Under the pieces are notes generated by a model that had not been told where the DNA came from, did no database searches, and was given only the letters and a program-made list of their open reading frames with translations. A program made the translations under genes and the position numbers. Shown here piece by piece: positions 12,824 to 26,096 of a stretch of DNA of 64,000 nucleotides. How positions within the stretch are numbered: the stretch's first letter is position 1; every line of letters begins with the position of its first letter. The stretch spans positions 224,001-288,000 of the forward strand of contig CBDCEW010000105.1 in the NCBI GenBank assembly GCA_965215885.1, written 5' to 3'. The stretch comes from Candidatus Moanibacter sp. (lineage in GTDB: Bacteria > Verrucomicrobiota > Verrucomicrobiia > Opitutales > UBA2987).

Positions 12824-12839
12824 TGGCACGACCATTGCT
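12824..12839 (+). promoter_or_regulatory. Sigma-54 (-24/-12) promoter
   Basis: TGGCACG-ACCA-TTGCT matches the consensus TGGCACG-N4-TTGCW. It lies about 55 bp before the TonB receptor ATG once the IS is removed. Confidence 0.75.
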
Positions 12840-12895
12840 CGAATGATCCGAGTGTTCACTTTTGTTCAAGAGAAGAAATAACCAAAACCTACCTA

Positions 12896-14812
12896 GACCC
12901 CATTCGAAAAGCCTTTCGAGCGGGCGGTTTAAGGTTCTCCGCCACGGGCGGACCAGCCTATGGCTGGCAGGTTTCGGGTTTTAGGCTGCCGGCGCTGCCG
13001 ATGAGCAGGTATTGAGCGGCCATCGGCGTGGCTTGCTGCACAATACGTATATTTGCCGCTGTCTGGAGGCATACTCATCCCGTGGTGCTTTTTTCTCTGA
13101 GCTTCAAAGCGGTCAGATTCAGGCTGCCTGTTCCAGTTCCTCCCCTCGGCGTTTCTTCATCAGTATGATGCGGCAGAAGTTGTAGGCCAGAACCTTCTCG
13201 AGCAGTTCATCGCCTACCGCATCGATGCCGCGGCGGCCGAGTTCGCCAAAGGCAAATCCATCTTTAATCGTGAACATCAGCGACTCCACTGCGGAGCGAT
13301 CGCGGCGTGCCTCGCGATACGCCTCGCTCTCCCAGTCCTCGGGGGTGGTCAACTTCTTGCCCTTCGCCCCACTGATACTGATCTGCTTTACCCCCATGCT
13401 CAGCACCTCCTTGCGTCCCTTCGCCGAAGCATATCCGTCATCGGTGCTGACCAGTTCAGCAATGACACCGGTGCGCTTGATCGAATCGCCGATGGCCGGC
13501 GCCAGCTCAATGGAGTCTGCCGCGTTGCCTTGCGGTACGATCAGGCTGGTGACAAAACCGTTTTCGCTGCGAACCAGTTGTGGCTTGTACCCGATCACTG
13601 GATTGCGGCTGCCCTTCTTGATGTAGGCCGCCGATCCGTCCGAGAGGCTCAGGACCTTCTGTGTGGACGGTAGCTTCTTTTCGTGAAACACCCGATCATG
13701 AGCATACTCAACAACCCGCTTGGCGTCGGCAATATCGCCCCTGATCTGGCTCAATGCCCGCTCCAGAAGCTCCCGGCGAGTGGGAGGCAGTGAATCCATC
13801 GACAGGCCCTCTTCAAGATGGCTCAGTTCCCCCGTTAGTGAGTCGGCCGCCTTGCGGCCCCGCTTGAGCAACCGCCGGTAGTGTTTCTTCAGCTTGCCCT
13901 TCGACTTCGGTTTGCCCGCGGCCAGACAAATCTGAAACTCCAGCTTGTCCATTTCCTCCAGCCAACGCCCAACCCATCCCTTGCGAAAATCCTCCAGCCC
14001 GAAGACATGCAACTTCTGACCCAAACGATTGGCCCGCATCAAAAGACCGCTCAGAATCTTCCCATCGGTGGGCCAGCAGCTGTTTGCTTTCACCGAGGTG
14101 CTGTCGATCGTCAGCTTCCCGAAATCGTCCCATTGCTCCTGGAGGATAAACCCAATCTGTTTATCAAAGATCAACTCGCGGGTCGTATGGCTGACCAGGT
14201 TCACGTTCTCCAGAATCGTCGTCACCGCCGGCATTCTCAGTCCCCCGCTCTGCAAAAATCCGTACAAGCTCATCGACTCGCGCACAAACCGCCGTGCCGG
14301 TTTCGTGGTCAACGAACCCAGAAACCCTCGAATCATCACGAACACGTATACCGCATAAGCCGGCATCCGCGGCCGGCCTGCCCCAAGATTCAATTCAGCA
14401 GCCAGAATATTCTCCTCCTCGATGTCCAGCTCCGGCAGCTCCGCTGTGCGCCCTTCAAAGAACCTTCGATCTTCCAATCGAAGTTTCTTCTTCTCACGCG
14501 CATGGGCGTCCAGATCCTTCTCGATCGCCTCGATGATTTGCGCCGCGAACCCGGCCAATTCTTCAACTTCATCCAGAAAATCACGGAAATCCGTGTCTGG
14601 AACCGGCAGAATGAGGTTGCTAAGGGGCGTCTTATCGCTTTTGTTCTCCTCTGTCGCACATGTTGGCATGTTTAACTCCTTTCTTAATCTTAGGTTGTTA
14701 AACACTAGCATGTTGCGACACTTTTTATCAAGCCAAAAAATGATTTTTCTCAAGTTTTTCGTGCGCCTTTTGCGCCTCTTTGCGGCCAATCAGTAGCTTT
14801 TCGGATAAGGTC
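12896..14812 (-). mobile_element. Insertion sequence copy 1 (1917 bp, DDE, IS5/IS1182/ISNCY-like)
   Basis: Imperfect terminal inverted repeats GACCCCATTCGAAAAGC / GCTTTTCGGATAAGGTC; 6-bp target duplication TACCTA. Confidence 0.95.
13119..14669 (-). CDS. DDE transposase (516 aa from the ATG with a ribosome-binding site)
   Basis: TIDST, STDDGY and RSAVESLMFTIK catalytic motifs; AAGGAG upstream of MPTCATEE. Confidence 0.93.
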   Translation of the reverse strand: MPTCATEENKSDKTPLSNLILPVPDTDFRDFLDEVEELAGFAAQIIEAIEKDLDAHAREKKKLRLEDRRFFEGRTAELPELDIEEENILAAELNLGAGRPRMPAYAVYVFVMIRGFLGSLTTKPARRFVRESMSLYGFLQSGGLRMPAVTTILENVNLVSHTTRELIFDKQIGFILQEQWDDFGKLTIDSTSVKANSCWPTDGKILSGLLMRANRLGQKLHVFGLEDFRKGWVGRWLEEMDKLEFQICLAAGKPKSKGKLKKHYRRLLKRGRKAADSLTGELSHLEEGLSMDSLPPTRRELLERALSQIRGDIADAKRVVEYAHDRVFHEKKLPSTQKVLSLSDGSAAYIKKGSRNPVIGYKPQLVRSENGFVTSLIVPQGNAADSIELAPAIGDSIKRTGVIAELVSTDDGYASAKGRKEVLSMGVKQISISGAKGKKLTTPEDWESEAYREARRDRSAVESLMFTIKDGFAFGELGRRGIDAVGDELLEKVLAYNFCRIILMKKRRGEELEQAA

Positions 14813-14817
14813 TACCT

Positions 14818-17226
14818 ATGAGAAAAATCACATCTGCACTGTTAGCCTCCGGCATCTTGCTGGCTATATCTCCGGTCCTCGCGCAGGAAGAAGAGGTCGA
14901 GGAACTGGAAGAATACCTCATCGAAGAACTCGTCGAAGATCCTGTCGGCATCATACCCGAGCGTCCCACCGAGACCCTCTTCGGCACCTCCCGCTCCGTC
15001 CTGGAAATACCGCGGTCGATCTCCATGATCGAGGGTGATATGCTCGAGCGCTACGGCGTCCAATCCGTGGCTGACTTCATCTCCGTCTCCGCCGGAACCT
15101 TTACCGACAATTTTTTCGGTATTCCGGGAAGCCTCCAGATTCGCGGCACTTTCAGCGACACCTTCTTCCGCGGTTTTCGCCGCGTAGAAAATCGCGGGAA
15201 TTATCCCACGCCCATCGCCGCCACTCAGCGCGTCGAAATCGTCCGGGGCCCCCCCACCCCATATTACGGCGGCGGCAAGGTCGGAGGGTTCATGAACTTT
15301 ATCCCTAAGAGCGCACGCACCGAAACCGCCAAGTTCATTGAGAAACCAACCGGGAAGCTCGGCCTCACCTACGGTTCTTATGACAGAAAGCAGCTCGACG
15401 TGGAATTCGGCGCCCCCATCGAATTCGGCCGGGCCAAAGGAGGCTATTACGTCTACGGCCAGTTTGAAGACTCCAAAAGCTTCTACATCGACGTAATCAA
15501 TCGCAACAAGATCATCCAGGTCTCATTCGACATCGATCTCAACGACACCTGGAATGTGGAATTCGGCACAATGTTGACGAAGACCCGGCTCATCCAAAAT
15601 CCCGGCTGGAATCGACTTACCCAGGACCTCATCGACAACGGTACCTACATCACGGGAAGTCCAGCCACCATTGTTCCGGACACTAACGGTAACGGAGTGC
15701 TCGATGAAGCGGAAGCGATCCCGTTTGGGCTCGATACTTTCTGCGCCAATTTCAACCTCTGTTTCGACTTTGGCGGGACTACCGGCTTAACCAATATCGG
15801 AACCACCACGCTCAGCCGCCGGAAAGTATTCACGGATCCCAACGACTTCGGCGACACCAACACTTACACCGCTTATTTCGATCTCAACGCAGAGCTGAGC
15901 GATAACCTTCGCATGTCCACGCAGTTTTTTTACGACCACATGCAACACGATAAACACACCACCTACGGCTTTACCTCCCTTTATAACCCTCGCATCATTG
16001 AAGTGAAGCACACCTTCTTTCATAAGATGGGCGCCTCAGATAACTTTAAAGGGGAGAATGTCTTTGGCTTCAACTACCGCAAATACGAGGTCACCGAAAA
16101 GGAAGCCTTCAGCCAGGGTATGCAGATTTTTGATCGCCGTGATCTTTCCGTAGGTCCCACTACCCAGGACCGGTTCGCCAACGCAACCACCGACGGCCGC
16201 AGATACAATACCAAATACAAAAGTACCACAGATGATATCGGTATCTATGGCGTGACGGATCTGACCTTCGCCGAGAAATTCGGGGTTGTTGCCGGATTCC
16301 GATGGGATTTCTATGATCAGGAAACGACCGACCTCGTCGACAGACCCAACGTTCTGGCAGATCCGAATCCGAATTTCGGGGAAACCGCAACCGACTCGCG
16401 AGATGTTATCACCTTTAATGCCAGCGGCACCTACACCCACGAGACCGCCAACGGCTGGAAATTCATACCCTACATCACCTATGCGGAATCCACCTTCATA
16501 GAAAATGGCCAGAGCGGCGGCGCTAATTTCGGCGCCGCTGCGAGCGGCAGCTGGCTGCAGGATTCCGACCTCTGGGAGGGCGGGCTTAAGGTGTCGGGCT
16601 TTGAAGGAAAACTGCATGCGACTTTCGCTCTATATCAGCAGAATCGAACACGTCTCGACACGATGGCGATGCCCCCTACCGTTGTTAACAACCGTTCCAC
16701 CGGATACGAAGTCGAAACCCGCTTCGTTCCCAACAAGAATTGGGCGTTCACCTTTACCGGGACCTGGTCGAAGACGATTGAAACACCTGCACCCGGTTTC
16801 GGTTCGTTCACGGTCCTCCCCATCGCTGTTATACCTCGGACTCCCGAGCAAGGTTATGGCGGCCGATATTTCGCTGGCACGGGCTTCGCCGGCCTGCCCA
16901 GTTTTGAGCAGGATGGCCAGCCGGATAAGGTCATCAGCGCCTATGTCTCTTACACCGGCGAACTGGGCGACGGCGAGTGGGGCCTTACCTTCGGCTCTAC
17001 TTATGTCGCCGATGTCTTCGCGGGACGCGTAAAATTCATCAAATTGCCCGATTACTGGATTACCAACCTCTCCGGCTTCGTCCAGATGGGAAAGTGGCGG
17101 GTAGCCGGTCTCATCAAGAACGTCTTCGACGAACGCTACTTTCGCTCCCAGGCTATCTTCCACGAAGTCCTCGTCCTCCCCGGAGCCGGAATCACCGCCG
17201 AAGCAACCCTCAGCTATAATTTCTAA
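14818..17226 (+). CDS. TonB-dependent receptor
   Basis: Signal peptide; plug motifs (EIPRSISMI, IRG, RVEIVRGP..YG); C-terminal KNVFDERY and terminal YNF. Confidence 0.93.
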   Translation: MRKITSALLASGILLAISPVLAQEEEVEELEEYLIEELVEDPVGIIPERPTETLFGTSRSVLEIPRSISMIEGDMLERYGVQSVADFISVSAGTFTDNFFGIPGSLQIRGTFSDTFFRGFRRVENRGNYPTPIAATQRVEIVRGPPTPYYGGGKVGGFMNFIPKSARTETAKFIEKPTGKLGLTYGSYDRKQLDVEFGAPIEFGRAKGGYYVYGQFEDSKSFYIDVINRNKIIQVSFDIDLNDTWNVEFGTMLTKTRLIQNPGWNRLTQDLIDNGTYITGSPATIVPDTNGNGVLDEAEAIPFGLDTFCANFNLCFDFGGTTGLTNIGTTTLSRRKVFTDPNDFGDTNTYTAYFDLNAELSDNLRMSTQFFYDHMQHDKHTTYGFTSLYNPRIIEVKHTFFHKMGASDNFKGENVFGFNYRKYEVTEKEAFSQGMQIFDRRDLSVGPTTQDRFANATTDGRRYNTKYKSTTDDIGIYGVTDLTFAEKFGVVAGFRWDFYDQETTDLVDRPNVLADPNPNFGETATDSRDVITFNASGTYTHETANGWKFIPYITYAESTFIENGQSGGANFGAAASGSWLQDSDLWEGGLKVSGFEGKLHATFALYQQNRTRLDTMAMPPTVVNNRSTGYEVETRFVPNKNWAFTFTGTWSKTIETPAPGFGSFTVLPIAVIPRTPEQGYGGRYFAGTGFAGLPSFEQDGQPDKVISAYVSYTGELGDGEWGLTFGSTYVADVFAGRVKFIKLPDYWITNLSGFVQMGKWRVAGLIKNVFDERYFRSQAIFHEVLVLPGAGITAEATLSYNF

Positions 17227-17248
17227 ATACTATTCGGCTTTCTTCTTT

Positions 17249-17282
17249 AAAAGGCGGTCACCATTCCGGTGACCGCCTTTTT
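17249..17282 (+). terminator. Rho-independent terminator
   Basis: AAAAGGCGGTCACC-attcc-GGTGACCGCCTTTTT directly after the receptor stop codon. Confidence 0.85.
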
Positions 17283-17697
17283 CGTTGCCCTTGTTGATCT
17301 GAAATGCTTGTGCGGATGCGAAGATCGAAAAGCTTCCGCTTTCCGCTACGTTACGAATCGAAGTGTGTAGTCCCGGCGCGCCGGGAGAAGCTTTTCGTCC
17401 TGCCACTGCCACAAGTTTCACCCTGCCGTACGGCAGAATTCTACAGCTGCTACCGCATTAATCGTATATCGACGATAAACGAAAGATGCGGGACGAGGAC
17501 AAAAGAGTCCAAATCGCTCGCAACGGTCTTTCTTCTTTGGAAAAACTGGATTGAAGATTTGCACCACATCAAAAAGATATACTCGTCAGCAGCTCAGCAA
17601 TAAGAGAAGAACTATAAGGATCTCTCAGACTGCGCTGTTGATAGGGGCCTTAATGGCGGAATCGCCTATTGCTCCTGCAAAAAAGCACATATACAGG

Positions 17698-19092
17698 ATG
17701 AAAAAAAGTCACCTGCCAAACATCCTCGTCATCATGACCGACGATCACGGTCAGTGGGCTTCTCACTGCTACGGCAACTCTGAACTTGTGACACCGAATA
17801 TGGATTTCCTGGCGGAGAGTGGAATCCTCATGCAGAACGCATTCACAACCTGTCCGGTCTGCTCTCCCGCACGTGCCTCATTCTTCACCGGCCGGCTCCC
17901 TTCCCAACACGGCATTCACGATTTTATCAGCGAAGTGCCCGAGTTCGACTCGGGTTGGATGAAGGATGAAATAACCCTGCCGCAATTATTGAAGAGGCAG
18001 AATTATCAGACCGCCCTAATCGGAAAATGGCATTGCACTGCGAGCAGCCTCAAGCCGCAGCCGGGATTCGATTCCTGGGTCTGTTATGGTGACGAAGCCC
18101 CGGATTTCTGGAACACTTACGTCCACAGGGGCAACGTCAATTATTCCATACAGAGCAAAAATGTCTGGGAGTCGGGTTACCAGACCAGGATTTTTGCCCG
18201 CCACGCCATCGACTTCCTCCAGAATCGGGAAAGCGATAGACCCTTCTTCCTATTTTTCGGTCCGGTCAATACGCACCGCCCCTTCAACCTCCACCCCGAT
18301 AGAATCGTCGAGAAGTATCGGCAGTCACATTTCTGGGATATCCCGAAGGACGGAAAATCCTATCTCCACCCGGTCGCAACCATCCCCGAGAATCACGAGG
18401 AGTTTCTCGCCCAGTACTATTCCGCAGTAACCATGGTCGACGATCAGATAGGGACTCTACTCGACTATCTCGAGGGTCAGGGAATTCTCGATAATACCCT
18501 CGTTGTCTACACCTCCGACCACGGTCATATGAACGGTCACCACGGACTCTACTATAAGGGAGGAGCCACCATGCCCCAGAATTTCTATGAGGAGGTGATC
18601 AGAGTTCCCTACCTTCTCAGATGGCCGGATGGACTCCCCGGCGCTTTTCATCCGTCTATTCCCTTTGACCACTGCGACATGTTTCAAACCATTCTGGATG
18701 CTGCCGAAGTCAAACTCGATAGTGACGAGATCAGTGCAATCAACAGCCCGGGTGAGAGTCTGGTAAAATACTTCCAAACCCCCGAACGTGCATGGCGCTC
18801 CTATCAGTTCTGCGAATACGGCAACGCGATCATGATTTCGGACCTCGTGCATAAACTGGTCCGGCGTTTCCCACCTCACCAAGGCGTTTACCCCGATGAA
18901 TATATAAACCTTTCTATCGACCCGCGCGAAAGCGCCAATCGAATCGACGACTCGGCCTCGCAAAGTGAAATCGCCCGGCTCGACACACTCCTCGAAGATC
19001 ACTTCATCCGCTACGAGATTCCGGAAAAATCAGCTCGCAACATGCAGTCGCAGCCTCCCTGCAACGGTTCGGAACCGTGGCGGGTCTCGTGA
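17698..19092 (+). CDS. Sulfatase (formylglycine-dependent, Cys type)
   Basis: PNILVIMTDD, CSPARASFFTG, GKWH and SDHG motifs. Start placed at ATG 17698; no signal peptide. Confidence 0.92.
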   Translation: MKKSHLPNILVIMTDDHGQWASHCYGNSELVTPNMDFLAESGILMQNAFTTCPVCSPARASFFTGRLPSQHGIHDFISEVPEFDSGWMKDEITLPQLLKRQNYQTALIGKWHCTASSLKPQPGFDSWVCYGDEAPDFWNTYVHRGNVNYSIQSKNVWESGYQTRIFARHAIDFLQNRESDRPFFLFFGPVNTHRPFNLHPDRIVEKYRQSHFWDIPKDGKSYLHPVATIPENHEEFLAQYYSAVTMVDDQIGTLLDYLEGQGILDNTLVVYTSDHGHMNGHHGLYYKGGATMPQNFYEEVIRVPYLLRWPDGLPGAFHPSIPFDHCDMFQTILDAAEVKLDSDEISAINSPGESLVKYFQTPERAWRSYQFCEYGNAIMISDLVHKLVRRFPPHQGVYPDEYINLSIDPRESANRIDDSASQSEIARLDTLLEDHFIRYEIPEKSARNMQSQPPCNGSEPWRVS

Positions 19093-19161: not shown

Positions 19162-19508
19162 CACGATGGGAGAGGGAGATCCACTTCAATCTCCCCGTCG
19201 TCGTCATAATCGTAATCGAAAGTCGAAAAAGAGGAAGATCGACAGGAGATCACGATTGTTAGGCACGATGGGAGAGGGGGAACCGATGCGATTCCCGTCG
19301 TGATCATTATCGTGATCTAAAGTCGAAAAGAGGAAGATCGACAGGAGATTACGATTGTGAATCACGACGGAAGAGACGAATCCACTTCAATCTCCCTGTC
19401 GTGAATCATAATCGTAATCGAGAGTCGAAAAGAGGAAGATCGACTGGAGATCACGACTGAGACGCACGACGTTGGAAGCGAAAACTGATCAATCTTCCCG
19501 TCGTGATC
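19162..19508. repeat. Tandem ~101-bp hairpin-forming intergenic repeat (about 3.5 units)
   Basis: Units start at 19162, 19264, 19363 and 19465, with a conserved ATCGTAATCGAAAGTCGAAAAGAGGAAGATCGAC core. Confidence 0.85.
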
Positions 19509-19574: not shown

Positions 19575-20630
19575 ATGAACACATCAAAATTCACCCTTTC
19601 ACTCACCATTCTAATCTCTCTCCTTGGCGCTACCTCATCCCTTCCCGCAACCGGCCCGATTCCCGTCAAAGTGGCCGTGGTGGCAATGTACGAGGCCGGC
19701 GAATATACCGGTGATGCCCCCGGCGAATACCAATTCTGGATAGAGCGGGAAAACCTCAACAAGATATACTCCTTCCCCTTTGGCCCCCACGATCTGCGAA
19801 TGAATGACGCCGGACTCATGGGAGTCTGCACCGGACCGGGAGTCACGAATGCCGCAATGGTTATTTCGGCCCTCGGCCTGGATTCCCGCTTCGACTTTAG
19901 GAATACCTACTGGATTGTCTCCGGAATCGCCGGCGTGGACCCGGCAGACGCTTCCATCGGCTCCGCCGCCTGGGCGAACTGGGTCATTGAAGGCGATCTA
20001 TCCAAAGCGATCGACTCCAAGGAAGCGCCCGACGACTGGCCCTACGGTATTTTTCCCACCAACGGTAAGCGCCCTAACCAACTCGGCGACGGCTTCACCT
20101 ACAATAATATGGCATTTCGCTTGAATGCGTCCCTGGTCGACTGGGCCTACCAGCTGTCTAAAGACGTCGAGCTTATAGAACACCCGGAAACTGCTGAATT
20201 CCGCAAACTGTATGAAGGTATGCCCAACGCCTCCCGCCCTCCTTTCGTCTTGAAAGGTGACAGCTTTGGCTCCAACACCTATTGGCACGGCTCAATTCTC
20301 AACCAATGGGCAAATGACTGGACGAAACTCTACACCAACGGCGAAGGAAATTCTGTCATGACCAATATGGAGGACAACGGCACCCTGCGCGCCCTCCATC
20401 GGCTTGCCAAGATCGGCAGGGTCGACATCGATCGTGTTCTGGTCTTAAGAACCGCAAGCAACTACTCAGCGGAACCGCCCGGCGAGACTGCAGAGTGGAG
20501 CCTTACCGCCCCGTATCCCGCCAGTGGCCTCACCGCGAAAGAGGCCTGCTATCGCGTTGCCGCCCCCGTCGTCCACGCCCTCGTGGGTGGATGGGATAAG
20601 TATGAGGGCAAAATACCGGGAGATGATTGA
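19575..20630 (+). CDS. NUP (purine nucleoside permease) family protein with signal peptide
   Basis: PIPVKVAVVAMYE.G..TGD.PGE.Q.W, LGLDSRFD..TYWIVSGIAGVDP, MED.G and LRTASNY motifs. Confidence 0.88.
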   Translation: MNTSKFTLSLTILISLLGATSSLPATGPIPVKVAVVAMYEAGEYTGDAPGEYQFWIERENLNKIYSFPFGPHDLRMNDAGLMGVCTGPGVTNAAMVISALGLDSRFDFRNTYWIVSGIAGVDPADASIGSAAWANWVIEGDLSKAIDSKEAPDDWPYGIFPTNGKRPNQLGDGFTYNNMAFRLNASLVDWAYQLSKDVELIEHPETAEFRKLYEGMPNASRPPFVLKGDSFGSNTYWHGSILNQWANDWTKLYTNGEGNSVMTNMEDNGTLRALHRLAKIGRVDIDRVLVLRTASNYSAEPPGETAEWSLTAPYPASGLTAKEACYRVAAPVVHALVGGWDKYEGKIPGDD

Positions 20631-20924
20631 CCGGAATGGCACTAACCTAAGGGATAGTTACGGTGATCACCGATGTTCCCGATTCGGCCGCCCTCCGACA
20701 GAGCTCGGGGTCTTTGACAAGGGGCCTTCCCACAAAGACTTACGTCTGTCGTCGTAAGCTTGCTTGCGAGCGATTCTCGCCCTAAGTAAGTGCCATTCCC
20801 GCTTCGCTCCAAAGACCGAATCGCGAAACAGTTCGACCGTGCTCACCACAGGCGATCCGGCTACCTGAGAATCTGGATAATCGTTGCAGTCGACGCGCGG
20901 ATAGAAAATCTTAAACCGGCAGCC

Positions 20925-20959
20925 CTGACCTCTGACCTTCGACCTTTGACCTCTGACCT
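20925..20959. repeat. Five heptamer repeats (CTGACCT)
   Basis: ctgacct ctgacct tcgacct ttgacct ctgacct, ending 3 nt before the ATG at 20963. Confidence 0.85.
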
Positions 20960-20962
20960 GGA

Positions 20963-22024
20963 ATGAGAACCCTCTCCATACCACTTACTATTCTCCTGAC
21001 CGCTTGTGCATTGCACGCATCACAGGAAACCGAATCACCTCTTCCCATCAAGGTCGTCGTTGTCGCCATGTTCGAAGCGGGCGAGGACACCGGCGACCGC
21101 CCAGGAGAATTCCAACACTGGGTCGAGCGATATTCCCTTCCGGAAAAGATCCCGTTCCCACACGGTTATCGCGACCTGCGCTACAACGAGCGCGGCGTCC
21201 TCGGTGTCGTAACCGGAATCGGAACAGCTAGAGCCGCGTCGACAATCATGGCCCTCGGCATGGATCCACGATTCGACCTGACGAATGCCTACTGGCTCGT
21301 CGCCGGTATTTCCGGCGTCGATCCGGCTGACATGTCACTCGGATCAACCGCTTGGGCGGAGTGGCTTGTCGACGGAGATATCGCCCACCAGATCGACATT
21401 CGGGAAGCGCCCGAAGAATGGCCCACCGGCTATGTCCCGTTGCGCAAATCCGTGCCCTACGAGCGTCCGCGGAAGAAAGACGACGAAGGCGCCGTCTACA
21501 GACTCAACGCGAACCTCACTGAATGGGCCTACCAGCTGACGAAGGATACTCCGCTCAAAGATAATGAAGAGTTGCAAGTGCTGCGCTCGCGATATGTGAA
21601 CTTTTCCACCGCGAGGAAGCCACCTTTTGTCCTCAAAGGAGACAATATGGCCTCATCGACCTTCTGGCACGGTGCGCTTCTCACAAAATGGGCAAACGAC
21701 TGGATCGATTATTGGACCGGCGGCGAAGGGAACTTCGTCACTGCCGCAATGGAAGACACCGGCACGCACCAGTCCCTCAACTTTCTCGCTCAGGCGGGAA
21801 AAGTAGATCCTTCACGTCTCATGGTGCTACGATCAGCGAGCAATTTCGTCATGCCTTACGAAGGTCTCACCGCCGCCCAGAGTCTCGCGGGCGAAAAAAA
21901 GGATAAGGGATACTCCGCCTACTTCCCCGCCCTCGAAAACGCCTATCGCGTAGGAAGCAGAGTGGTCAACGAGTTGGTAGAGAACTGGGATACGTATGAA
22001 AACAATATCCCTCTCGGAGAGTGA
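20963..22024 (+). CDS. NUP family protein, second paralogue with signal peptide
   Basis: Same motif set: PIKVVVVAMFE.GEDTGD.PGEFQ.W, DPRFDLT.AYWLVAGISGVDP, AMEDTGT, LRSASNF. Confidence 0.9.
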   Translation: MRTLSIPLTILLTACALHASQETESPLPIKVVVVAMFEAGEDTGDRPGEFQHWVERYSLPEKIPFPHGYRDLRYNERGVLGVVTGIGTARAASTIMALGMDPRFDLTNAYWLVAGISGVDPADMSLGSTAWAEWLVDGDIAHQIDIREAPEEWPTGYVPLRKSVPYERPRKKDDEGAVYRLNANLTEWAYQLTKDTPLKDNEELQVLRSRYVNFSTARKPPFVLKGDNMASSTFWHGALLTKWANDWIDYWTGGEGNFVTAAMEDTGTHQSLNFLAQAGKVDPSRLMVLRSASNFVMPYEGLTAAQSLAGEKKDKGYSAYFPALENAYRVGSRVVNELVENWDTYENNIPLGE

Positions 22025-22452
22025 CAGAAATGTCGCGAAAAATTCACATCATCATGGCGCCCTTTGCGCTCGTTCCTCTTTTCGCTTTCCTATTATTATC
22101 CGCAACCACTCTCGGAGCTTTCGGCGCAAGCCCGATCAGCGAAACCGTTATCCTTCACACACAAACGATTTCGAAGGCGCTTTCGACCCGATTCCGACCT
22201 ATTGCCGAAACGACATCGACTACCTCGCTGGCGGTGCTCATCTTGTCGCGTTGGTTGAGCAGATCCGCAAGTGGGAGGAAATCTAATTTCTACGCCTCCT
22301 TTCTTAACGCGACTGTATTCCGCGAATCAGCCGCCGGTCCCATACTAAATGACAGCCTTCTGATGTATTTCTCTATCCATCCCGAACCGAAACATCCGAA
22401 GGGGGGACGATTGATCGCTGTGGAGAACGAGAGATCTTCGTTCTTTGAATGA
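22021..22452 (+). CDS. Hypothetical small membrane protein
   Basis: Start overlaps the NUP stop codon; hydrophobic N-terminus; no recognised motif. Confidence 0.3.
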   Translation: MTEMSRKIHIIMAPFALVPLFAFLLLSATTLGAFGASPISETVILHTQTISKALSTRFRPIAETTSTTSLAVLILSRWLSRSASGRKSNFYASFLNATVFRESAAGPILNDSLLMYFSIHPEPKHPKGGRLIAVENERSSFFE

Positions 22453-22747
22453 ATACTCCTCGTCCTGTTCAGTCCCGCCCTCGGCGCGCCGCTCCTTTCA
22501 GGATCAAACGAGTTTGAAACGTCCGCGCCAACCAGGATCGACCTTCCATACAGTAGTAGCGCGGTGCTTTAGCCCGCGGCGCGCGGTGGGTTTTCGAAGC
22601 CCAGTGTGCGGTGAGGTTTCAGGTCACTCCGGCCCCCGGCCGGCCGGCTGGCCTGGTCAGAAAGAGAGTGAATCCCGAGGTAGCGACAGGACGAAAAGCT
22701 TCCGCTTTCCGCTACACCTTTCCATCAGATTCGTAGCGGGAGCAATA

Positions 22748-23938
22748 CTGAAGTGCCTGGCCCTCATTGGATCTATTCTTCCTGCCGCGGTGGACGCCCA
22801 TCTTCTCAATATGACCCGCGTTTCCATTGACGCGGACTTGGAAAATCAAACCATCTTGATTCGAGCCGAAATTGATCTCACGCGCTCCCTGGGTGGTTCG
22901 GAACCCTACATCGAATTATGCAAGCTTCCCGCCGATCAAGCCAGTCTTCAAGTACTTCCCCTTCTTGAGGCAATACTCGCAAAGGTCCACCTGAAGTACG
23001 CGGGCACCATCATCGAACCCGAAATTGAACGATTCGCACTCCCGGCCATGGAACCGGAAGAATTCAGAAAGCGATATGCCGCTCCCATGACCTGGGTTTG
23101 GCTCACTGCGCCGATGCCGGAAACTGACGGTAGCCTCGTCCTATCGACGGATCCGGATATTCCGATTGAATTCCCACTCGCCCTCACAATCGGTCTACCG
23201 GCGGAAAAACGGTTTATGACGCGTTGGCTGGACGCGGGCCAGAGAAGTCAACCATTCGCGATTTCGAATTCGCGGGGTGCATCACGGCAAAATCAGCTTG
23301 CCAACGGAATCGCGGAACCGGCTCCCCCCACAGCCGAGCAGGAATCCACCATCGATTCCAGCCCGGAAGTGCACCGCGATACCTGGTACGATGTCGCCCT
23401 CCAATACGTAAATCTCGGAATTACACATATTATCCCAAAAGGTCTCGACCATATCCTCTTTATTCTGGGTCTTTTCCTTCTCGCCATCCGCTGGAAGCCC
23501 CTTCTTCTCCAGGTCACCTTCTTCACCGTGGCGCACTCCGTCACGCTCGCCTTGGCAGTTATTGGCTCCATCTCTTTTTCGGCCAAGGTGGTGGAACCCC
23601 TAATCGCCGTTTCCATCGCTTACGTCGGCATCGAGAACATCTGGATGGCGAGACTCAGCCGCTTTCGTCTCGGCGTTGTGTTTCTTTTCGGTCTTTTACA
23701 CGGCATGGGGTTTGCGCGGGTGCTTCTCAATCTGGGCCTTCCGAAAGGGGAATTTCTGACCGCTCTCGTCTTTTTCAATGTCGGAGTCGAAGTCGGCCAG
23801 ATCTGTGTCCTCGCCTTCGCTTTCCTTGCTCTTGGCTGGTTCCGTAATTGGAAAAATTACAAGAACGTTATCCTCATTCCAGGCTCGGCTATCGTCAGCT
23901 GCGTGGCCATCTACTGGACTTTCGAGAGGATCTTTTGA
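22748..23938 (+). CDS. HupE/UreJ family protein with N-terminal periplasmic domain
   Basis: GITHIIPKGLDHILF, FTVAHSVTL, FGLLHGMGFA and FNVGVEVGQ motifs. Start is uncertain; the listed ORF start (22445) runs through repeat DNA. Confidence 0.88.
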   Translation: MKCLALIGSILPAAVDAHLLNMTRVSIDADLENQTILIRAEIDLTRSLGGSEPYIELCKLPADQASLQVLPLLEAILAKVHLKYAGTIIEPEIERFALPAMEPEEFRKRYAAPMTWVWLTAPMPETDGSLVLSTDPDIPIEFPLALTIGLPAEKRFMTRWLDAGQRSQPFAISNSRGASRQNQLANGIAEPAPPTAEQESTIDSSPEVHRDTWYDVALQYVNLGITHIIPKGLDHILFILGLFLLAIRWKPLLLQVTFFTVAHSVTLALAVIGSISFSAKVVEPLIAVSIAYVGIENIWMARLSRFRLGVVFLFGLLHGMGFARVLLNLGLPKGEFLTALVFFNVGVEVGQICVLAFAFLALGWFRNWKNYKNVILIPGSAIVSCVAIYWTFERIF

Positions 23939-23962
23939 ATCGATTCTGCTGAAAAAAAGCCC

Positions 23963-24035
23963 CCACGTTCTTGCGAACGCGGCTACGACCCTCCGTAAGT
24001 AGTTGATATTTGTAGCCGCGTTCGCAAGAACGTGG
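23963..24035. repeat. Inverted pair of 24-bp GTAG-type REP-like elements
   Basis: CCACGTTCTTGCGAACGCGGCTAC and its exact reverse complement at 24012-24035. Confidence 0.88.
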
Positions 24036-24180
24036 TCGCGGATTCCGAAACGGGAACGTTTTCAGCGTAATCTGAATAGGAGAAATTTTCTCAAGGGCGT
24101 AGCACAGAAGGTAAGAGAATACCCTCTTTGCGTGTTAGGCGAAGAATACAAATGCACAAGTCCATCAACAGCCAACAAGA

Positions 24181-26073
24181 ATGAAAATCACAGTCCAATT
24201 CATCATTCCCATATTCCTCTCAGCTCTAGCTTTCGGCGAAGCCGAAAGCTCCGAAAGCTTCCAGTTCAGCGACGAGATTGTGACACGCCAGCTTCTCATG
24301 CGAGTCGCCCTGGAAGACGAGCGTTCCGATCTCATCATCAAAGGTGTTGAGCTTCTCAGTGTCCATACTCTTACCTGGAACAAGAACTGGGACATCGTGA
24401 TCAGGGGCGATCGTATCGCATGGATCGGCCCCTCAGGCGAATGGACGGGAGATGCCGACCGATCTGTAGACGCCACGGGTTTTTTCGCTGTCCCGGGGTT
24501 CGGTGAATCGCACAAGCACATTGAGAGTTCACACCTCACACCGGAGTTCGAGGCGTCCCTTGTCATTCCATTCGGAAACACATGGACTGTTGAGGGCTCG
24601 CACGAGTTCTCCAATGTTTCCGGAGAGCACAACATCGAATTCTGGTTAACGCCGCGCAAACATGGAAGTCCGCTCAAGATTTTCCCTGAATTGGGATCCG
24701 CTACGCCGCCCACCCCGTATGAATCCGGCGGCGGTTATTACGGCTACAAGGAGATTCGGGAGAATATGGCCAAAGACCCCTGGGTAATAGGCCTCGGTGA
24801 AGTCATGGATTGGCCGCGAGTTTGGAATACGAGCTTACCCGGCTCTGAGCGAATTTGGCAGGTCATTCAAGCCGCCATGGATGCGGGTGGCGTCGTTGAG
24901 GGGCACGGCGGAGGACTCGTGAAAATTGACGACATCAACGCCTTCGCCGCCGCCGGCCTGGAGAGCGATCACGAGGTCCGCCTCGCCGAAGAGGCATGGA
25001 ACAAAGTCAACCGCGGGATATTCCTCCAACTGCGGTATAATGCGCTGCCCCTCGTGATTCCCTATCTCATGGAGAAGGGGATCCGGGATTGGTCGCATCT
25101 GTCCATCACCACGGACGACCGAAACGCTGCCGCTTCCCTCGAACTGGGGACCAATAATTACAATATTAAGATCGCCATCGACGCAGGGGCTCCCGTTGAA
25201 GCGGCCTATGCCATGGCAACTCTCTATCCGGCCAAACATGCCGGAGTGGACAATATCGTAGGTTCAATTACTCCCGGCAGGTATGCCGATATCGTGCTTC
25301 TTCGAGATCCCAAAACCGTAGACATAGCGAAAGTTTATGCCGACGGTAAGCTCGCCGCCGAGGACGGACGATACCTCCTCGATGTGCCGAAGATCGATTG
25401 GCCCGACTGGGCGAGAAATACCATCAAATTCAACCGTCAGTTCACGGCCGCGGATTTCGTAATCAACGCTCCTTCGAATGCGGACGCGGTGCACGCCGCC
25501 GTCCTCAAGCCCTACCATTTTGAGGAGGACTTTCTCGTTGAAACGCTTTCCGTTCGTGACGGCAAAGTCTTTCCCGATGCAGATAAGGAACTCACAAAGC
25601 TCGCCGTTATTGACCGCTATAGTGGTAGCGGAGCGATCTCGAAGATGTTTTGGAAAGGAGTCGGTCCGAAGACACCTCGCTCCGCCCTTACCTGCTCCGT
25701 CGCTCACGATCTGCACAACCCCTGGGTAATCGGCAATGACGATGCCGCCATGGCCCTCGCCGTAAACGAACTCGCTAAAATGGGCGGAGGTTGGGTCCTT
25801 GTAAAGGGTGGCCAGGTGACCGCCAAAGTAAAATTCGAGATCGGCGGCCTCATGAGCGCGCGGCCTCCCCAGGAAGTGGCCGACGAACTGAACGAACTCT
25901 TCGCCGCCGCCGATACCATGGAATGGATAGGCCAACCCGGACTGCCGCGCCGAATGATTTTCGCGTTCCTCACCTGCACACCCTGGAAGTGGGTCATCGT
26001 TGCCCCTTTCGATGGCGCACCTCAAGGCCTCGTCAAGGTAACTACCGGTGAATCACACCCCGTGGTCTGGTAA
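24181..26073 (+). CDS. ade: Adenine deaminase family protein with apparent signal peptide
   Basis: PGFGESHKHIESS (HxH), GLGEVMDW, EGH, SDHE, TTDD, SVAHD.HN and GGLMS motifs. Confidence 0.88.
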   Translation: MKITVQFIIPIFLSALAFGEAESSESFQFSDEIVTRQLLMRVALEDERSDLIIKGVELLSVHTLTWNKNWDIVIRGDRIAWIGPSGEWTGDADRSVDATGFFAVPGFGESHKHIESSHLTPEFEASLVIPFGNTWTVEGSHEFSNVSGEHNIEFWLTPRKHGSPLKIFPELGSATPPTPYESGGGYYGYKEIRENMAKDPWVIGLGEVMDWPRVWNTSLPGSERIWQVIQAAMDAGGVVEGHGGGLVKIDDINAFAAAGLESDHEVRLAEEAWNKVNRGIFLQLRYNALPLVIPYLMEKGIRDWSHLSITTDDRNAAASLELGTNNYNIKIAIDAGAPVEAAYAMATLYPAKHAGVDNIVGSITPGRYADIVLLRDPKTVDIAKVYADGKLAAEDGRYLLDVPKIDWPDWARNTIKFNRQFTAADFVINAPSNADAVHAAVLKPYHFEEDFLVETLSVRDGKVFPDADKELTKLAVIDRYSGSGAISKMFWKGVGPKTPRSALTCSVAHDLHNPWVIGNDDAAMALAVNELAKMGGGWVLVKGGQVTAKVKFEIGGLMSARPPQEVADELNELFAAADTMEWIGQPGLPRRMIFAFLTCTPWKWVIVAPFDGAPQGLVKVTTGESHPVVW

Positions 26074-26096
26074 ACGTTCGAAAGGTTGTTAGCTAA

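What the first reader, a model, noticed from the sequence alone, without database searches (positions are those of the whole stretch)
12824..26073. Candidate sigma-54-controlled periplasmic purine-nucleoside scavenging system
Seen: a co-oriented run of sigma-54 promoter, TonB-dependent receptor, sulfatase, two NUP-family proteins, HupE/UreJ and adenine deaminase. The receptor, both NUP proteins and the deaminase all have signal peptides. Known: sigma-54 often drives nitrogen-scavenging genes; adenine deaminase releases ammonia and needs divalent metal; HupE/UreJ proteins are linked to metal uptake. Inference: nucleosides are imported through the outer membrane, then bound or cleaved and deaminated in the periplasm, making this a nucleoside analogue of a polysaccharide utilisation locus. 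Caveat: a terminator follows the receptor and repeats separate the genes, so this is not one operon, and the sulfatase may be unrelated.
Basis: partly seen in the sequence, partly recalled or inferred. Interest (0 to 1): 0.75.

Follow-up and report, generated by a model that had tools for sequence, protein, structure and literature searches.

The report
Envelope purine-scavenging gene cluster
This bacterial gene cluster probably breaks down purine nucleosides outside the cytoplasm to harvest nitrogen, and its exported adenine deaminase belongs to a widespread gene trio with a metal-capturing membrane protein and an outer-membrane receptor that I did not find described in the papers searched.

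Summary
The TGGCACGACCATTGC sigma-54 element is real, but a 1,917-bp insertion sequence (12896-14812, 6-bp target duplication) now separates it from the receptor's ATG. Before the insertion it lay about 57 nt upstream. A strong terminator follows the receptor, so sigma-54 could only ever have driven that one gene.

The conserved core is NUP(x1-4)-HupE/UreJ-2-Ade, found in 6 related genomes, always with a signal peptide on Ade.

"NUP" is not a permease. Its model superposes on MTA/SAH nucleosidase (Z 24).

The HupE/UreJ-2 protein has a His-1 "anglerase" metal-capture domain (top fold hit 9gce).

In 77 metagenome loci the exported Ade subfamily sits beside HupE/UreJ-2 in 62 and behind a TonB receptor in 41. 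Of 33 strict sigma-54 motifs in those loci, 24 lie just upstream of the receptor or Ade gene. These loci come from few independent lineages.

Relatives of the window's receptor flank Ade, adenosine deaminase and NUP genes in other lineages.

The sulfatase is probably a passenger.

Verdict: the purine-scavenging reading is largely supported. It is a new variant of a TonB-centred utilisation locus, and here its receptor is probably silenced. Substrates and the role of the metal protein are untested.

The parts
12824..12839 (+). Sigma-54 type -24/-12 element TGGCACGACCATTGCT. It is now cut off from the receptor.
   Evidence: exact match; sequence. rpoN is present in the genome.
12890..12895 (.). 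Left copy of the 6-bp target-site duplication TACCTA
   Evidence: alignment of the flanks of the five IS copies
12896..14812 (-). Insertion sequence, 1,917 bp. DDE transposase at 13119-14789 on the minus strand. Imperfect terminal inverted repeats.
   Evidence: The genome holds 113 near-full-length copies, median identity 99.7%.
14813..14818 (.). Right copy of the target-site duplication TACCTA. Its last base is the A of the receptor's ATG.
14818..17226 (+). TonB-dependent receptor, 802 aa, signal peptide MRKITSALLASGILLAISPVLA|QEEE
   Evidence: Homologues of 30-39% identity lie directly behind Ade genes in 8 of 41 genomes.
17253..17282 (+). Intrinsic terminator: GGCGGTCACC-ATTCC-GGTGACCGCC-TTTTT
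   Evidence: Read
17698..19092 (+). Cys-type sulfatase (CSPAR motif), probably cytoplasmic and probably a passenger. An alternative TTG start is at 17551.
   Evidence: Orthologues lie elsewhere in 7 relatives.
19179..19506 (.). About three tandem copies of a ~102-bp repeat family
   Evidence: At least 120 hits in the genome.
19575..20630 (+). NUP1: exported PF06516 protein, nucleosidase-like
   Evidence: Orthologues of 65-76% identity lie next to Ade in relatives.
20963..22024 (+). NUP2: exported PF06516 protein with MTAN fold and a possible lipobox (LTAC)
22025..22600 (.). Spacer unique in the genome, containing orf143 (22021-22452, no Pfam family). It is absent at this position in relatives.
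22586..23938 (+). Anglerase-like N-domain fused to a HupE/UreJ-2 membrane domain. The start is uncertain (GTG 22586 or 22604). The mature N-terminus is His (..VDA|HLLN).
23963..24035 (.). Long hairpin between the HupE and Ade genes, probably a repeated element
   Evidence: weak miRNA-precursor-like matches on both strands. Contig depth is raised here.
24181..26073 (+). AdeS: exported adenine-deaminase-family amidohydrolase, signal peptide MKITVQFIIPIFLSALAFGEA
26097..26233 (.). Further copies of the ~100-bp repeat family, closing the cluster

Best explanation
The region is a composite envelope purine-scavenging locus in an Opitutales-like bacterium.

**Shown**
- Two exported NUP proteins have the fold of MTA/SAH nucleosidase.
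- An adenine-deaminase-family enzyme carries a signal peptide (AdeS).
- NUP-HupE/UreJ-2-AdeS is a conserved unit in the organism's family. AdeS-HupE/UreJ-2, often behind a TonB receptor with a sigma-54 promoter, is a widespread cassette.

**Inferred**
- Purine nucleosides or bases cross the outer membrane through the TonB-dependent receptor.
- The NUP proteins split, or at least hold, the nucleosides in the periplasm.
- AdeS deaminates adenine or a close 6-aminopurine to hypoxanthine plus ammonia. An exported, Tat-type adenosine deaminase encoded just before the window does the same at the nucleoside level.
- The anglerase-HupE/UreJ-2 protein handles the transition metal that the binuclear AdeS needs.
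- The receptor was transcribed on its own from a sigma-54 promoter, plausibly under nitrogen limitation. In this genome a recent IS insertion directly at its ATG has cut that link, so the receptor is probably poorly expressed.
- The sulfatase is a passenger.
For: **Domains and signal segments:**

**AdeS**
- It aligns with A. tumefaciens adenine deaminase 3nqb at E 3e-50 over residues 29-590.
- HxH, E207, H242, H264 and D312/D313 are invariant in 38 sequences.

**Family conservation**
- AdeS orthologues of 72-74% identity occur in 5 of 8 same-family genomes, with pseudogene pieces in a sixth.
- NUP is adjacent in all 6 of those loci, and HupE lies between them in 3. All intact orthologues have signal-like N-termini.

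**Neighbours in relatives**
- They include a ~500-aa adenosine deaminase with a signal peptide, a signal-bearing PNP_UDP_1 protein and a cytidine deaminase.
- The organism's own adenosine deaminase orthologue (63%) lies at C105:222417-223796 and has an SRREFFKKG Tat-like motif.

**NUP2**
- Model pLDDT 88.8. Foldseek top hits are futalosine hydrolase and MTAN, E 1.8e-12. VIA Z 24.2, rmsd 2.6 A, 231 of 237 residues of 4wkb.

**80 NUP loci from named genomes**
- 30 hold another purine gene: xanthine/uracil permease 21, adenosine deaminase 16 (12 of them directly upstream), xanthine-dehydrogenase-like 8.
- ADA-TBDR-NUP runs occur in Steroidobacteraceae and Psychrosphaera. A Puniceicoccaceae locus has TBDR-Ade-ADA-permease facing NUP-NUP.

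**Receptor clade**
- Homologues of 30-39% identity lie directly behind a cytoplasmic-type Ade gene in 8 of 41 genomes. One genome has NUP-Ade-TBDR.

**Cassette in 77 metagenome loci**
- HupE next to AdeS in 62 and a TBDR in 41.
- Of 33 strict TGGCAY-N5-TTGC hits in about 1 Mb (both strands), 19 lie upstream of the TBDR and 5 upstream of AdeS.
- 23 of 25 TBDR-upstream regions have a hit with at most 2 mismatches, against a mean of 3.0 in shuffles.

**HupE**
- Invariant His after the signal segment in the window protein and three relatives. The N-domain's top fold hit is 9gce RbAng-1a, E 3e-7.
- The published anglerase model is in PMC12537917 (passages read).

**IS**
-. The 6-bp duplication on both flanks shows that the two flanks belong together.

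**Yeast data that fit an external nucleosidase**
- CaNUP lets adenine-auxotrophic yeast grow on adenosine but gives no sensitivity to toyocamycin (PMC9431476, passages).
Against: - No activity has been measured, and the substrates of AdeS, NUP and the receptor are untested.
- The receptor's closest orthologue (56%, on an 8-kb contig) sits beside an AraC regulator, an amidohydrolase and a CNT nucleoside transporter, not NUP/AdeS. It has no sigma-54 motif.
- None of the 6 related NUP-AdeS loci holds a receptor or sulfatase hit above 60 bits in the ~20 kb examined.
- The cassette receptors are only 22-26% identical to the window's and match other receptors of this genome better.
- Only 4 of 77 AdeS loci have NUP, 5 have ADA and 3 have a purine permease. 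The other flanks are unrelated.
- The receptor and sigma-54 evidence is concentrated in one AdeS clade: 48 of 71 loci fall in one single-linkage cluster at 80%. Independent lineages are therefore few.
- HupE/UreJ-2, Ang-1, ZrgA and PA4063 are metal-uptake proteins, which also fits a metal reading.
- By motif order, the NUP residue at the place of MTAN's catalytic Asp197 is Asn (35 of 37 sequences). Asp197Asn MTAN mutants were crystallised with uncleaved substrate (PDB titles). The mapping is by eye, because sequence alignment did not reproduce it.
Confidence: 0.5

Rival explanations
1. Mosaic reading. Only NUP-HupE/UreJ-2-AdeS is a functional unit. The sigma-54 receptor and the sulfatase were brought next to it by rearrangement in an IS-ridden genome and serve another substrate, for example another N-heterocycle or an amide.
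For: - The receptor and sulfatase are absent from all 6 related NUP-AdeS loci.
- By synteny with relatives (PKS, AcrB and adenosine deaminase upstream; cNMP and MMPL genes downstream), about 20 kb including FG-GAP genes, the IS, the receptor and the sulfatase lies between the adenosine deaminase and the NUP genes here.
- The genome holds 113 IS copies.
- Receptor homologues of 37% identity in another genome flank AtzH/AtzG/amidase/allophanate hydrolase and Rieske oxygenase genes.
- A terminator isolates the receptor.
Against: - The same receptor clade lies directly beside Ade, ADA and NUP genes in at least 10 other loci across Opitutales and Gammaproteobacteria.
- In two metagenome loci a receptor 32-35% identical to the query receptors faces AdeS, with sigma-54 motifs pointing both ways.
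- Receptor plus exported Ade plus sigma-54 recurs independently.
Confidence: 0.2
2. Other-substrate reading. AdeS and NUP act on something other than plain adenine or adenosine, such as N6-modified adenines or adenosines, other aminated heterocycles, or MTA/SAH-like nucleosides. The locus would then scavenge or detoxify those.
For: - AdeS is only ~30% identical to the cytoplasmic-type Ade genes of the same genomes and forms its own subfamily, with motifs TCTPWKW and PGFGESHK.
- An Ade-family protein of B. subtilis was reported to deaminate N6-methyladenosine (PMC8643624, abstract in the search listing only).
- The nearest NUP folds are MTA/SAH nucleosidase and futalosine hydrolase.
- Receptor relatives flank triazine-type pathway genes.
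Against: Where AdeS or NUP has informative neighbours, they are ordinary purine genes: adenosine deaminase, xanthine/uracil permease, xanthine-dehydrogenase-like, nucleoside hydrolase. The catalytic residues of Ade are kept.
Confidence: 0.15
3. Metal-acquisition reading. Receptor, AdeS and anglerase-HupE/UreJ-2 form a transition-metal uptake route. The receptor imports a metal complex, the amidohydrolase releases the metal or is merely a metal-dependent client, and the permease takes the metal in. The NUP adjacency would be a lineage-specific addition.
For: - HupE/UreJ-2 is next to AdeS in 62 of 77 loci, and the cassette mostly stands without purine genes.
- Fold hits of the N-domain are Cu-bound RbAng-1a and the zinc proteins ZrgA and PA4063.
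- PMC12537917 proposes metal capture and uptake for this architecture. It notes TonB receptors and NikR regulators beside the related DUF4198 family (passages).
Against: - The conserved promoter type is sigma-54. By recall, known metal regulons usually work through Fur/Zur/NikR repression of sigma-70 promoters.
- AdeS keeps the adenine deaminase catalytic set.
- In the lineages where neighbours are informative, they are purine genes.
Confidence: 0.12

Closest known systems
TonB-centred nutrient utilisation loci: Bacteroidota PULs and the ddbABCDEF DNA-utilisation locus of Bacteroides thetaiotaomicron (PMC12478041, abstract and introduction read)
   Same: An outer-membrane TonB-dependent transporter is encoded with exported enzymes that process a nutrient outside the cytoplasm. 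The ddb locus yields deaminated nucleobases from DNA.
   Different: No SusD-like partner and no nucleases are present here (Pfam). The enzymes are MTAN-fold NUP proteins and an exported Ade-family deaminase, and a metal-capture permease is part of the unit. The promoter type is sigma-54, and the phylum is different.
Adenine deaminase Ade (A. tumefaciens Atu4426, PDB 3nqb)
   Same: It has an amidohydrolase domain plus the Adenine_deam_C domain. It aligns at E 3e-50 over almost the full length, and the metal-ligand motifs are kept.
   Different: AdeS carries a signal peptide and is only ~30% identical to the cytoplasmic-type Ade genes of the same genomes. It is linked to HupE/UreJ-2 and TonB receptors. 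I found no exported adenine deaminase in the papers searched.
Anglerase (Ang-1/Ang-2) fused to HupE/UreJ-2 permease (PMC12537917; PDB 9gce)
   Same: Same architecture: signal peptide, His as the first mature residue, a beta-sandwich periplasmic domain, then a PF13795 membrane domain.
   Different: The paper's main text lists other neighbours (DUF4198, indigoidine-A-like glycosidase, PfkB kinase). The words 'deaminase' and 'adenine' do not occur in its main text, and I did not look at its supplements. The fixed pairing with an exported Ade-family enzyme appears to be new.
MTA/SAH nucleosidase (MTAN), including the periplasmic MTAN of Aeromonas hydrophila (PDB 5b7q, title only)
   Same: NUP2 superposes on it at Z 23-24 over nearly the whole MTAN chain. 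An exported member of the fold is already known.
   Different: There is no detectable sequence similarity. NUP has about 90 extra residues. By eye, Asn stands where MTAN has its catalytic Asp197.
Candida albicans NUP, 'purine nucleoside permease', the founder of PF06516
   Same: Same Pfam family. It is linked to the use of external adenosine and guanosine (PMC9431476, passages).
   Different: The bacterial proteins have a cleavable signal segment and a soluble enzyme fold with no membrane domain. 'Permease' is therefore probably a misnomer for them.

Membership tests
Sigma-54 dependent promoter | -24 GG and -12 GC elements with the correct spacing (TGGCAC-N5-TTGC) | tested here: met
   Exact match at 12824-12838. 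The consensus itself is recalled.
Sigma-54 dependent promoter | Lies a short distance upstream of the gene it drives | tested here: not met
   It is now 1,994 nt from the receptor's ATG, with an opposite-strand IS between them. Before the insertion, the distance from the end of the motif to the ATG was ~57 nt.
Sigma-54 dependent promoter | The organism has RpoN and enhancer-binding activators | tested here: met
   One Sigma54_DBD match on contig C88. There are 10 matches over the cut-off with E <= 1e-22 to Sigma54_activat, none on the window's contig.
Sigma-54 dependent promoter | The motif is conserved upstream of equivalent genes elsewhere | tested here: inconclusive
   It is absent (at most 1 mismatch) upstream of the 56% orthologue and in relatives' NUP-Ade loci. 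It is present upstream of the receptor or Ade in 24 of 33 strict hits across the 77 cassette loci.
TonB-dependent receptor | Plug domain plus 22-strand barrel domain, with a signal peptide | tested here: met
   PF07715 and PF00593. N-terminus read. The TonB box was not examined.
Adenine deaminase (Ade) | Amidohydrolase domain plus Adenine_deam_C domain | tested here: met
   3nqb E 3e-50
Adenine deaminase (Ade) | Binuclear metal ligands (HxH, Glu, His, His, Asp) | tested here: met
   H111/H113, E207, H242, H264 and D312/D313 are invariant in 38 sequences. Which residues are the ligands is recalled.
Adenine deaminase (Ade) | Deaminates adenine | not testable with these tools
   Needs an enzyme assay
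NUP (PF06516) as a membrane permease | Integral membrane transporter | tested here: not met
   The model is a soluble alpha/beta fold behind one N-terminal signal segment.
MTAN / nucleoside phosphorylase-I fold | Shared fold | tested here: met
   Foldseek E 1.8e-12. VIA Z 24.2, rmsd 2.6 A, 231 aligned residues.
MTAN / nucleoside phosphorylase-I fold | Catalytic Asp (E. coli Asp197) and Glu12 | tested here: inconclusive
   By motif order, E38 is invariant and the Asp position is Asn in 35 of 37 sequences. No residue-level structural alignment was available, and sequence alignments failed.
Anglerase-HupE/UreJ-2 | PF13795 membrane domain | tested here: met
   4.3e-46 and 2.7e-46
Anglerase-HupE/UreJ-2 | His as the first residue after the signal peptide | tested here: met
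   H72 in '..A|HLLN' is invariant in the window protein and three relatives. The cleavage site is inferred.
Anglerase-HupE/UreJ-2 | Ang-type beta-sandwich periplasmic domain | tested here: met
   Top hit 9gce, E 3e-7, TM 0.65 normalised to the target. The N-domain of the model has pLDDT 75-89, but the whole model only 57.6.
Polysaccharide-utilisation-locus type (SusC/SusD) | SusD-like lipoprotein next to the receptor | tested here: not met
   None of the ORFs scanned in 7705-29213 has a SusD family hit.
Type I sulfatase | Sulfatase domain with a C-x-P-x-R formylglycine motif | tested here: met
   PF00884 8.7e-57. CSPAR read.

The most novel reading that the evidence does not exclude
The exported Ade-family deaminase, the anglerase-HupE/UreJ-2 metal-capture permease and a sigma-54-driven TonB receptor together form a widespread envelope pathway that I did not find described. 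Bacteria would use it to pull adenine-type purines out of very dilute environments and release their ammonia in the periplasm. The periplasmic binuclear enzyme would be metallated by its own dedicated His-brace partner. In Opitutales the pathway is extended by 'NUP' proteins, which would be periplasmic purine nucleosidases rather than permeases.
Probability: 0.4. Interest if true: 0.8.

Novelty: new variant of a known kind. Interest (0 to 1): 0.68.

Why it matters
- **TonB transport.** Purines are a major form of dissolved organic nitrogen, yet a 2024 review of TonB-dependent transport mentions nucleosides only in connection with the Tsx porin; 'purine' and 'adenosine' do not occur in its main text (PMC11658791, term search). 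A receptor-enzyme-permease route for purines would add a substrate class to TonB-dependent uptake.
- **Annotation.** It would re-annotate the large PF06516 'permease' family as exported nucleosidase-fold proteins.
- **A client for anglerases.** It would give the newly described anglerase-HupE/UreJ-2 proteins a concrete client enzyme. That makes periplasmic metallation of a binuclear amidohydrolase directly testable.
- **Regulation.** The conserved sigma-54 motif points to a simple regulatory test.
- **A natural knock-down.** The IS insertion in this genome is a natural promoter knock-down of the receptor.

Tried and rejected
- **Complex prediction, AdeS with the HupE N-domain.** A job with the window's own two stretches gave no verdict. 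This is no evidence either way.
- **Sequence links from NUP to solved structures.** phmmer and a 37-sequence profile found nothing relevant. hhalign against E. coli MTAN aligned 19 columns at probability 0.09. A local pairwise alignment did not reproduce my motif mapping.
- **Riboswitches.** None in 12000-27000 at E <= 1, and none in 7 related loci at gathering score.
- **Generic promoter and terminator scan.** Not above shuffles: 6 promoter-like sites against 7.4, and 16 terminator-like sites against 16.6.
- **The second perfect sigma-54 match (42315).** Rejected as a promoter. It is part of a 17-mer present 28 times in the genome.
- **Sigma-54 motif in relatives' loci.** No hit with at most 1 mismatch upstream of the relevant genes. 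One conserved hit lies inside HupE coding sequence, at the GMGFA motif.
- **Public reads.**
  - Contigs of one run reach 23 and 28 nt into the IS from either flank.
  - No joint across an empty site was among the rows shown.
  - An RNA run has short contigs on NUP1, NUP2, orf143, HupE and the sulfatase 5' end, and almost none on the receptor.
  - These are contigs, so expression cannot be judged.
- **Sulfatase as part of the system.**
  - Single orthologues (56-66%) in 7 relatives. The four whose start I read lack a signal peptide. In two of the three contexts scanned with Pfam they sit by UxuA, in one with another sulfatase.
  - One Saprospiraceae locus has TBDR-ADA-NUP-sulfatase (52%, with a signal peptide), so a link is not excluded.
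- **Earlier notes of this scan.** None for this place.
- **Literature.** Searches found no paper on a receptor-NUP-deaminase locus or an exported adenine deaminase. The library holds open-access papers only.

Full report
**1. What is in the sequence**

Six-frame ORFs and Pfam give the following order.
- Three FG-GAP/ASPIC genes on the minus strand (7705-12611).
- An exact sigma-54 type element, TGGCACGACCATTGC, at 12824-12838.
- A DDE transposase on the minus strand (13119-14789).
- Then, all on the plus strand:
  - a TonB-dependent receptor (14818-17226);
  - a sulfatase (ORF 17551-19092);
  - two PF06516 'NUP' proteins (19575-20630 and 20963-22024);
  - a 143-codon ORF without a family (22021-22452);
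  - a HupE_UreJ_2 protein (ORF 22445-23938);
  - an adenine-deaminase-family protein (24181-26073).
- Downstream lie a cNMP-binding gene and an MMPL gene on the minus strand.

It is GGCGGTCACC-ATTCC-GGTGACCGCC-TTTTT at 17253-17282. So are the repeats: about three copies of a 102-bp unit at 19179-19506 and related copies at 26097-26233.

**2.

- The transposase belongs to an element present five times in the window.
- Aligning the flanks of the five copies puts this copy at 12896-14812 (1,917 bp), with imperfect terminal inverted repeats.
- It is flanked by a 6-bp direct duplication, TACCTA, at 12890-12895 and 14813-14818. The last base of the right copy is the A of the receptor's ATG.
- The duplication shows that the two flanks belong together.
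- Before the insertion, the end of the sigma-54 element lay about 57 nt upstream of the start codon. That is an ordinary distance for such a promoter.
- The genome holds 113 near-full-length copies at a median identity of 99.7%, so the insertion is recent.
- Contigs of one public run reach 23 and 28 nt into the element from either flank. No contig joining an empty site was among the rows shown.

**3. How good is the sigma-54 call on its own?**

- The genome encodes RpoN and has 10 activator matches with E <= 1e-22, none on this contig.
- Genome-wide there are 46 perfect matches. Of these, 28 are one repeated 17-mer, which includes the window's second match at 42315. That leaves 18 unique against 13.6 expected from base composition.
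- One of the unique matches lies 28 nt before a 127-aa ORF whose N-terminus looks to me like a flagellar rod protein (by eye, not scanned).
- A single match is therefore weak evidence. Its position and orientation directly before a start codon are what count.
- No further match with at most one mismatch stands before the sulfatase, NUP, HupE or Ade genes. With the terminator behind it, only the receptor could ever have been served by this promoter.

**4. Export**

- The receptor (MRKITSALLASGILLAISPVLA|QEEE), NUP1, NUP2 (possible lipobox LTAC) and Ade (MKITVQFIIPIFLSALAFGEA) start with signal-like segments.
- For Ade this is unusual, so I checked its relatives.
  - The five intact orthologues in related genomes have such a segment, with unrelated sequences, and so do two of the three other paralogues read. 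The own paralogue on C72 shows none in my ORF call.
  - In the 77 metagenome loci, a crude rule flags 70 of 80 full-length copies, and several of the remainder are visibly signal-like too.
- The organism's adenosine deaminase has a Tat-like SRREFFKKG motif.
- The sulfatase most likely starts at ATG 17698 (MKKSHLPNILV...), like the orthologues whose starts I read, and has no signal peptide.

**5. Conservation in relatives**

- Among 40 related genomes plus the organism's own, 72-74% orthologues of the exported Ade ('AdeS') occur in 5 of the 8 same-family genomes, and as pseudogene pieces in a sixth.
- In all six loci a NUP gene is adjacent, in one to four copies; in one locus it is broken. HupE_UreJ_2 lies between NUP and AdeS in three.
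- None of the six has a hit to the window's receptor or sulfatase above 60 bits in the ~20 kb examined.
- Their other neighbours point to purines:
  - a ~500-aa adenosine deaminase with a signal peptide, divergent from or close to the NUP genes;
  - a signal-bearing PNP_UDP_1 protein;
  - a cytidine deaminase.
- The organism's own orthologue of that adenosine deaminase (63%) lies just before the window, at C105:222417-223796.
- Synteny shows that about 20 kb, including the FG-GAP genes, the IS, the receptor and the sulfatase, lies here between genes that are neighbours elsewhere. The shared flanks are PKS, AcrB and adenosine deaminase upstream, and cNMP and MMPL downstream.

**6. The receptor**

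- Its best orthologue (56%) is on an 8-kb contig. It sits beside an AraC regulator, a signal-bearing amidohydrolase and, 3.4 kb away, a CNT nucleoside transporter. It has no sigma-54 motif.
- Homologues of 30-39% identity lie directly behind a cytoplasmic-type Ade gene in 8 of the 41 genomes, the organism's own contig C96 included. One genome of another family has NUP-Ade-TBDR in one direction (coordinates; Pfam).
- In a further genome, 37% homologues flank AtzH/AtzG/amidase/allophanate hydrolase genes and Rieske oxygenases.
- This receptor clade therefore travels with nitrogen-heterocycle catabolism, and most often with purine genes.

**7. What NUP is**

- No solved structure is detectable by sequence.
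- An AlphaFold model of NUP2 built from 37 sequences (pLDDT 88.8) matches futalosine hydrolase and MTA/SAH nucleosidases. Foldseek gives E 1.8e-12. VIA-align gives Z 24.2, rmsd 2.6 A, 231 of 237 residues of 4wkb.
- There is no membrane domain, so these are exported nucleosidase-fold proteins, not permeases.
- Read against E. coli MTAN, the motifs follow in the same order:

| NUP2 | E. coli MTAN |
|---|---|
| AMFE | GAMEEE |
| TGIG | SGIGK |
| AGISG | TGSAGG |
| KGD | SGD |
| AMED | VEMEA |
| LRSASN | VRAISD |

- On this reading, Asn294 stands where MTAN has Asp197. That column is N in 35, S in 1 and D in 1 of 37 sequences.
- The mapping is by eye. hhalign and a local alignment did not reproduce it.
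- If it is right, NUP either binds rather than cleaves adenine nucleosides, or works like the phosphorylases that use Asn and prefer 6-oxopurines (recalled). The second option would fit an adenosine deaminase acting first.
- Yeast data fit an external nucleosidase. CaNUP lets an adenine auxotroph grow on adenosine but does not confer sensitivity to toyocamycin (PMC9431476, passages).

**8. NUP neighbourhoods at large**

- A scan of one genome per species kept the best 80 NUP loci, from Bacteroidota, Acidobacteriota, Verrucomicrobiota, Planctomycetota and Proteobacteria.
- Thirty of the 80 hold another purine gene within the stored flank:
  - xanthine/uracil permease in 21;
  - adenosine deaminase in 16, in 12 of them directly upstream on the same strand;
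  - xanthine-dehydrogenase-like in 8;
  - a receptor hit in 17.
- Clear cases:
  - ADA-TBDR-NUP-NUP in a Steroidobacteraceae genome;
  - ADA-x-TBDR-NUP-permease followed by urease genes in a Psychrosphaera genome;
  - TBDR-Ade-ADA-permease facing NUP-NUP in a Puniceicoccaceae genome;
  - TBDR-ADA-NUP-sulfatase in a Saprospiraceae genome.
- The nearest named records suggest the window's organism is an Opitutales-like verrucomicrobium.

**9. The wider cassette**

- A scan of metagenome contigs with an alignment of AdeS proteins found 173 relatives and kept 77 loci at 52-73% identity.
- HupE_UreJ_2 lies next to AdeS in 62 of the 77, and a TonB receptor is present in 41. The usual order is TBDR, AdeS, HupE_UreJ_2 on one strand.
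- NUP occurs in 4, adenosine deaminase in 5 and a purine permease in 3.
- The flanks of 12 long loci share nothing else, so this is a self-contained trio.
- The cassette receptors are only 22-26% identical to the window's. They match two other receptors of this genome better.

**10. Sigma-54 again**

- For 25 distinct cassettes with enough upstream sequence, 23 have a TGGCAC-N5-TTGC match with at most two mismatches before the receptor gene. The selection was 26 loci with a receptor match longer than 1,800 nt lying less than 500 nt before AdeS; two of them were identical. Shuffles give a mean of 3.0 and a maximum of 8.
- A strict census of TGGCAY-N5-TTGC over all 77 loci (997,637 nt, both strands) finds 33 hits. 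Nineteen lie within 700 nt upstream of a cassette receptor, 5 upstream of AdeS and 9 elsewhere.
- The spacers differ between loci, so the motif itself is what is conserved.
- Caveat: the loci are kin.
  - Of the 71 loci with a long AdeS match, 48 fall into one single-linkage cluster at 80% identity. That cluster holds 32 of the receptor cases and 19 of the strict motifs.
  - A second small group has a receptor 32-35% identical to the query receptors facing AdeS, with motifs pointing both ways.
  - With the window, that makes about three independent lineages.
- AdeS-HupE_UreJ_2 adjacency is broader: 10 of the 16 clusters at 80%.

**11. The HupE/UreJ-2 protein**

- In the window protein and three relatives, the residue after the signal segment is an invariant His (A|HLLN). 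His, Asp and Glu residues in the membrane helices are also invariant.
- A 2025 paper describes exactly this architecture (PMC12537917, passages). An 'anglerase' domain with His-1 binds Cu2+ and Ni2+ and is fused to a PF13795 permease. The authors propose that it fishes metal ions from the periplasm.
- My model of the window protein is poor overall (pLDDT 57.6, four sequences) but good in the N-domain (75-89).
- Its best structural match is that paper's RbAng-1a (9gce, E 3e-7). The next matches are the zinc proteins ZrgA and PA4063.
- The paper's main text does not mention deaminases. I did not open its supplements.
- In the window, the gene has no ATG near its signal segment (GTG at 22586 or 22604). 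A 576-bp spacer that is unique in the genome (22025-22600) separates it from NUP2, whereas in relatives the two genes abut.

**12. Reading**

- The parts fit an envelope pathway:
  - uptake through the outer membrane;
  - nucleoside cleavage or capture by NUP;
  - deamination by exported adenosine and adenine deaminases, releasing ammonia;
  - a dedicated metal-handling partner for the binuclear AdeS, which must acquire its metal outside the cytoplasm.
- Sigma-54 control suggests nitrogen limitation as the signal.
- The steps are inferred. What has been shown is folds, domains, export signals and conserved gene order.
- The main open points:
  - whether this particular receptor belongs to the unit or was brought alongside by rearrangement;
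  - what AdeS really deaminates;
  - whether the trio serves purine nitrogen or metal uptake.
- Here the IS has cut the receptor from its promoter. The sigma-70 pattern scan listed no outward-facing site between 14640 and 14818.

**13. Prior work**

- I found no paper describing a receptor-NUP-deaminase locus or an exported adenine deaminase (searches, over open-access papers and bioRxiv only).
- A 2024 review of TonB-dependent transport mentions nucleosides only for the Tsx porin (PMC11658791, term search).
- The nearest described system is the ddbABCDEF DNA-utilisation locus of Bacteroides, which yields deaminated nucleobases (PMC12478041, abstract and introduction).

Noticed in passing
window 12896-14812, 30684-32600, ~43036-44952, ~56415-58331, ~61785-63690: Five copies of one 1.9-kb IS lie within 64 kb, and the 6.36-Mb genome holds 113 near-full-length copies at a median identity of 99.7%. 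This is a recent IS expansion that reshuffles gene neighbourhoods. Coordinates for copies 2-5 are derived from the spacing reported.
   Followed up: partly
window 42315-42331 and 27 other places in the genome: The second perfect sigma-54-like match is part of a 17-mer, TGGCACGCAAATTGCGT, that occurs 28 times in the genome. It therefore belongs to another repeated element and is not a gene-specific promoter.
   Followed up: partly
window 19179-19506, 26097-26233, 7610-7651: A ~100-bp repeat family brackets the NUP-Ade block, in tandem copies on one side. It has at least 120 hits genome-wide. Contigs of public runs join different copies to each other.
   Followed up: partly
window 20925-20959: A heptanucleotide repeat (CTGACCT x5) ends 3 nt before the NUP2 start codon. 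One contig of a public run lacks one unit (table 4). This may be length variation that affects NUP2 expression.
   Followed up: no
window 30289-30684: A 131-codon ORF matches only positions 42-169 of the Druantia DruA profile. It ends where IS copy 2 begins, so it is probably a defence gene interrupted by the IS.
   Followed up: no
window 1512-5597 and 5974-6594: A large RHS-repeat/YD-shell protein and a downstream RHS fragment.
   Followed up: no
window 33569-42192 and 51638-55646: Further nitrogen-compound genes: an ABC transporter with its binding protein, two CN_hydrolase proteins, and hydantoinase/oxoprolinase A and B subunits.
   Followed up: no
L043 (G003:C18) 12138-15237 and L037 (G006:C3) 6124-6770: In two relatives the module is decaying. 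In one, AdeS and HupE are in pieces (frame changes and a TGA). In the other, NUP is in two pieces next to an intact AdeS.
   Followed up: partly
window 14814 joined to 12894 in run X1 (table 5c): A contig joins the right end of the IS to its left end with two letters between them. This is what a circular intermediate or two abutting copies would give.
   Followed up: no
L163 (metagenome contig) 10001-21788: One contig carries four AdeS paralogues, a receptor and a HupE/UreJ-2 gene in a row. This is local amplification of the exported deaminase.
   Followed up: no
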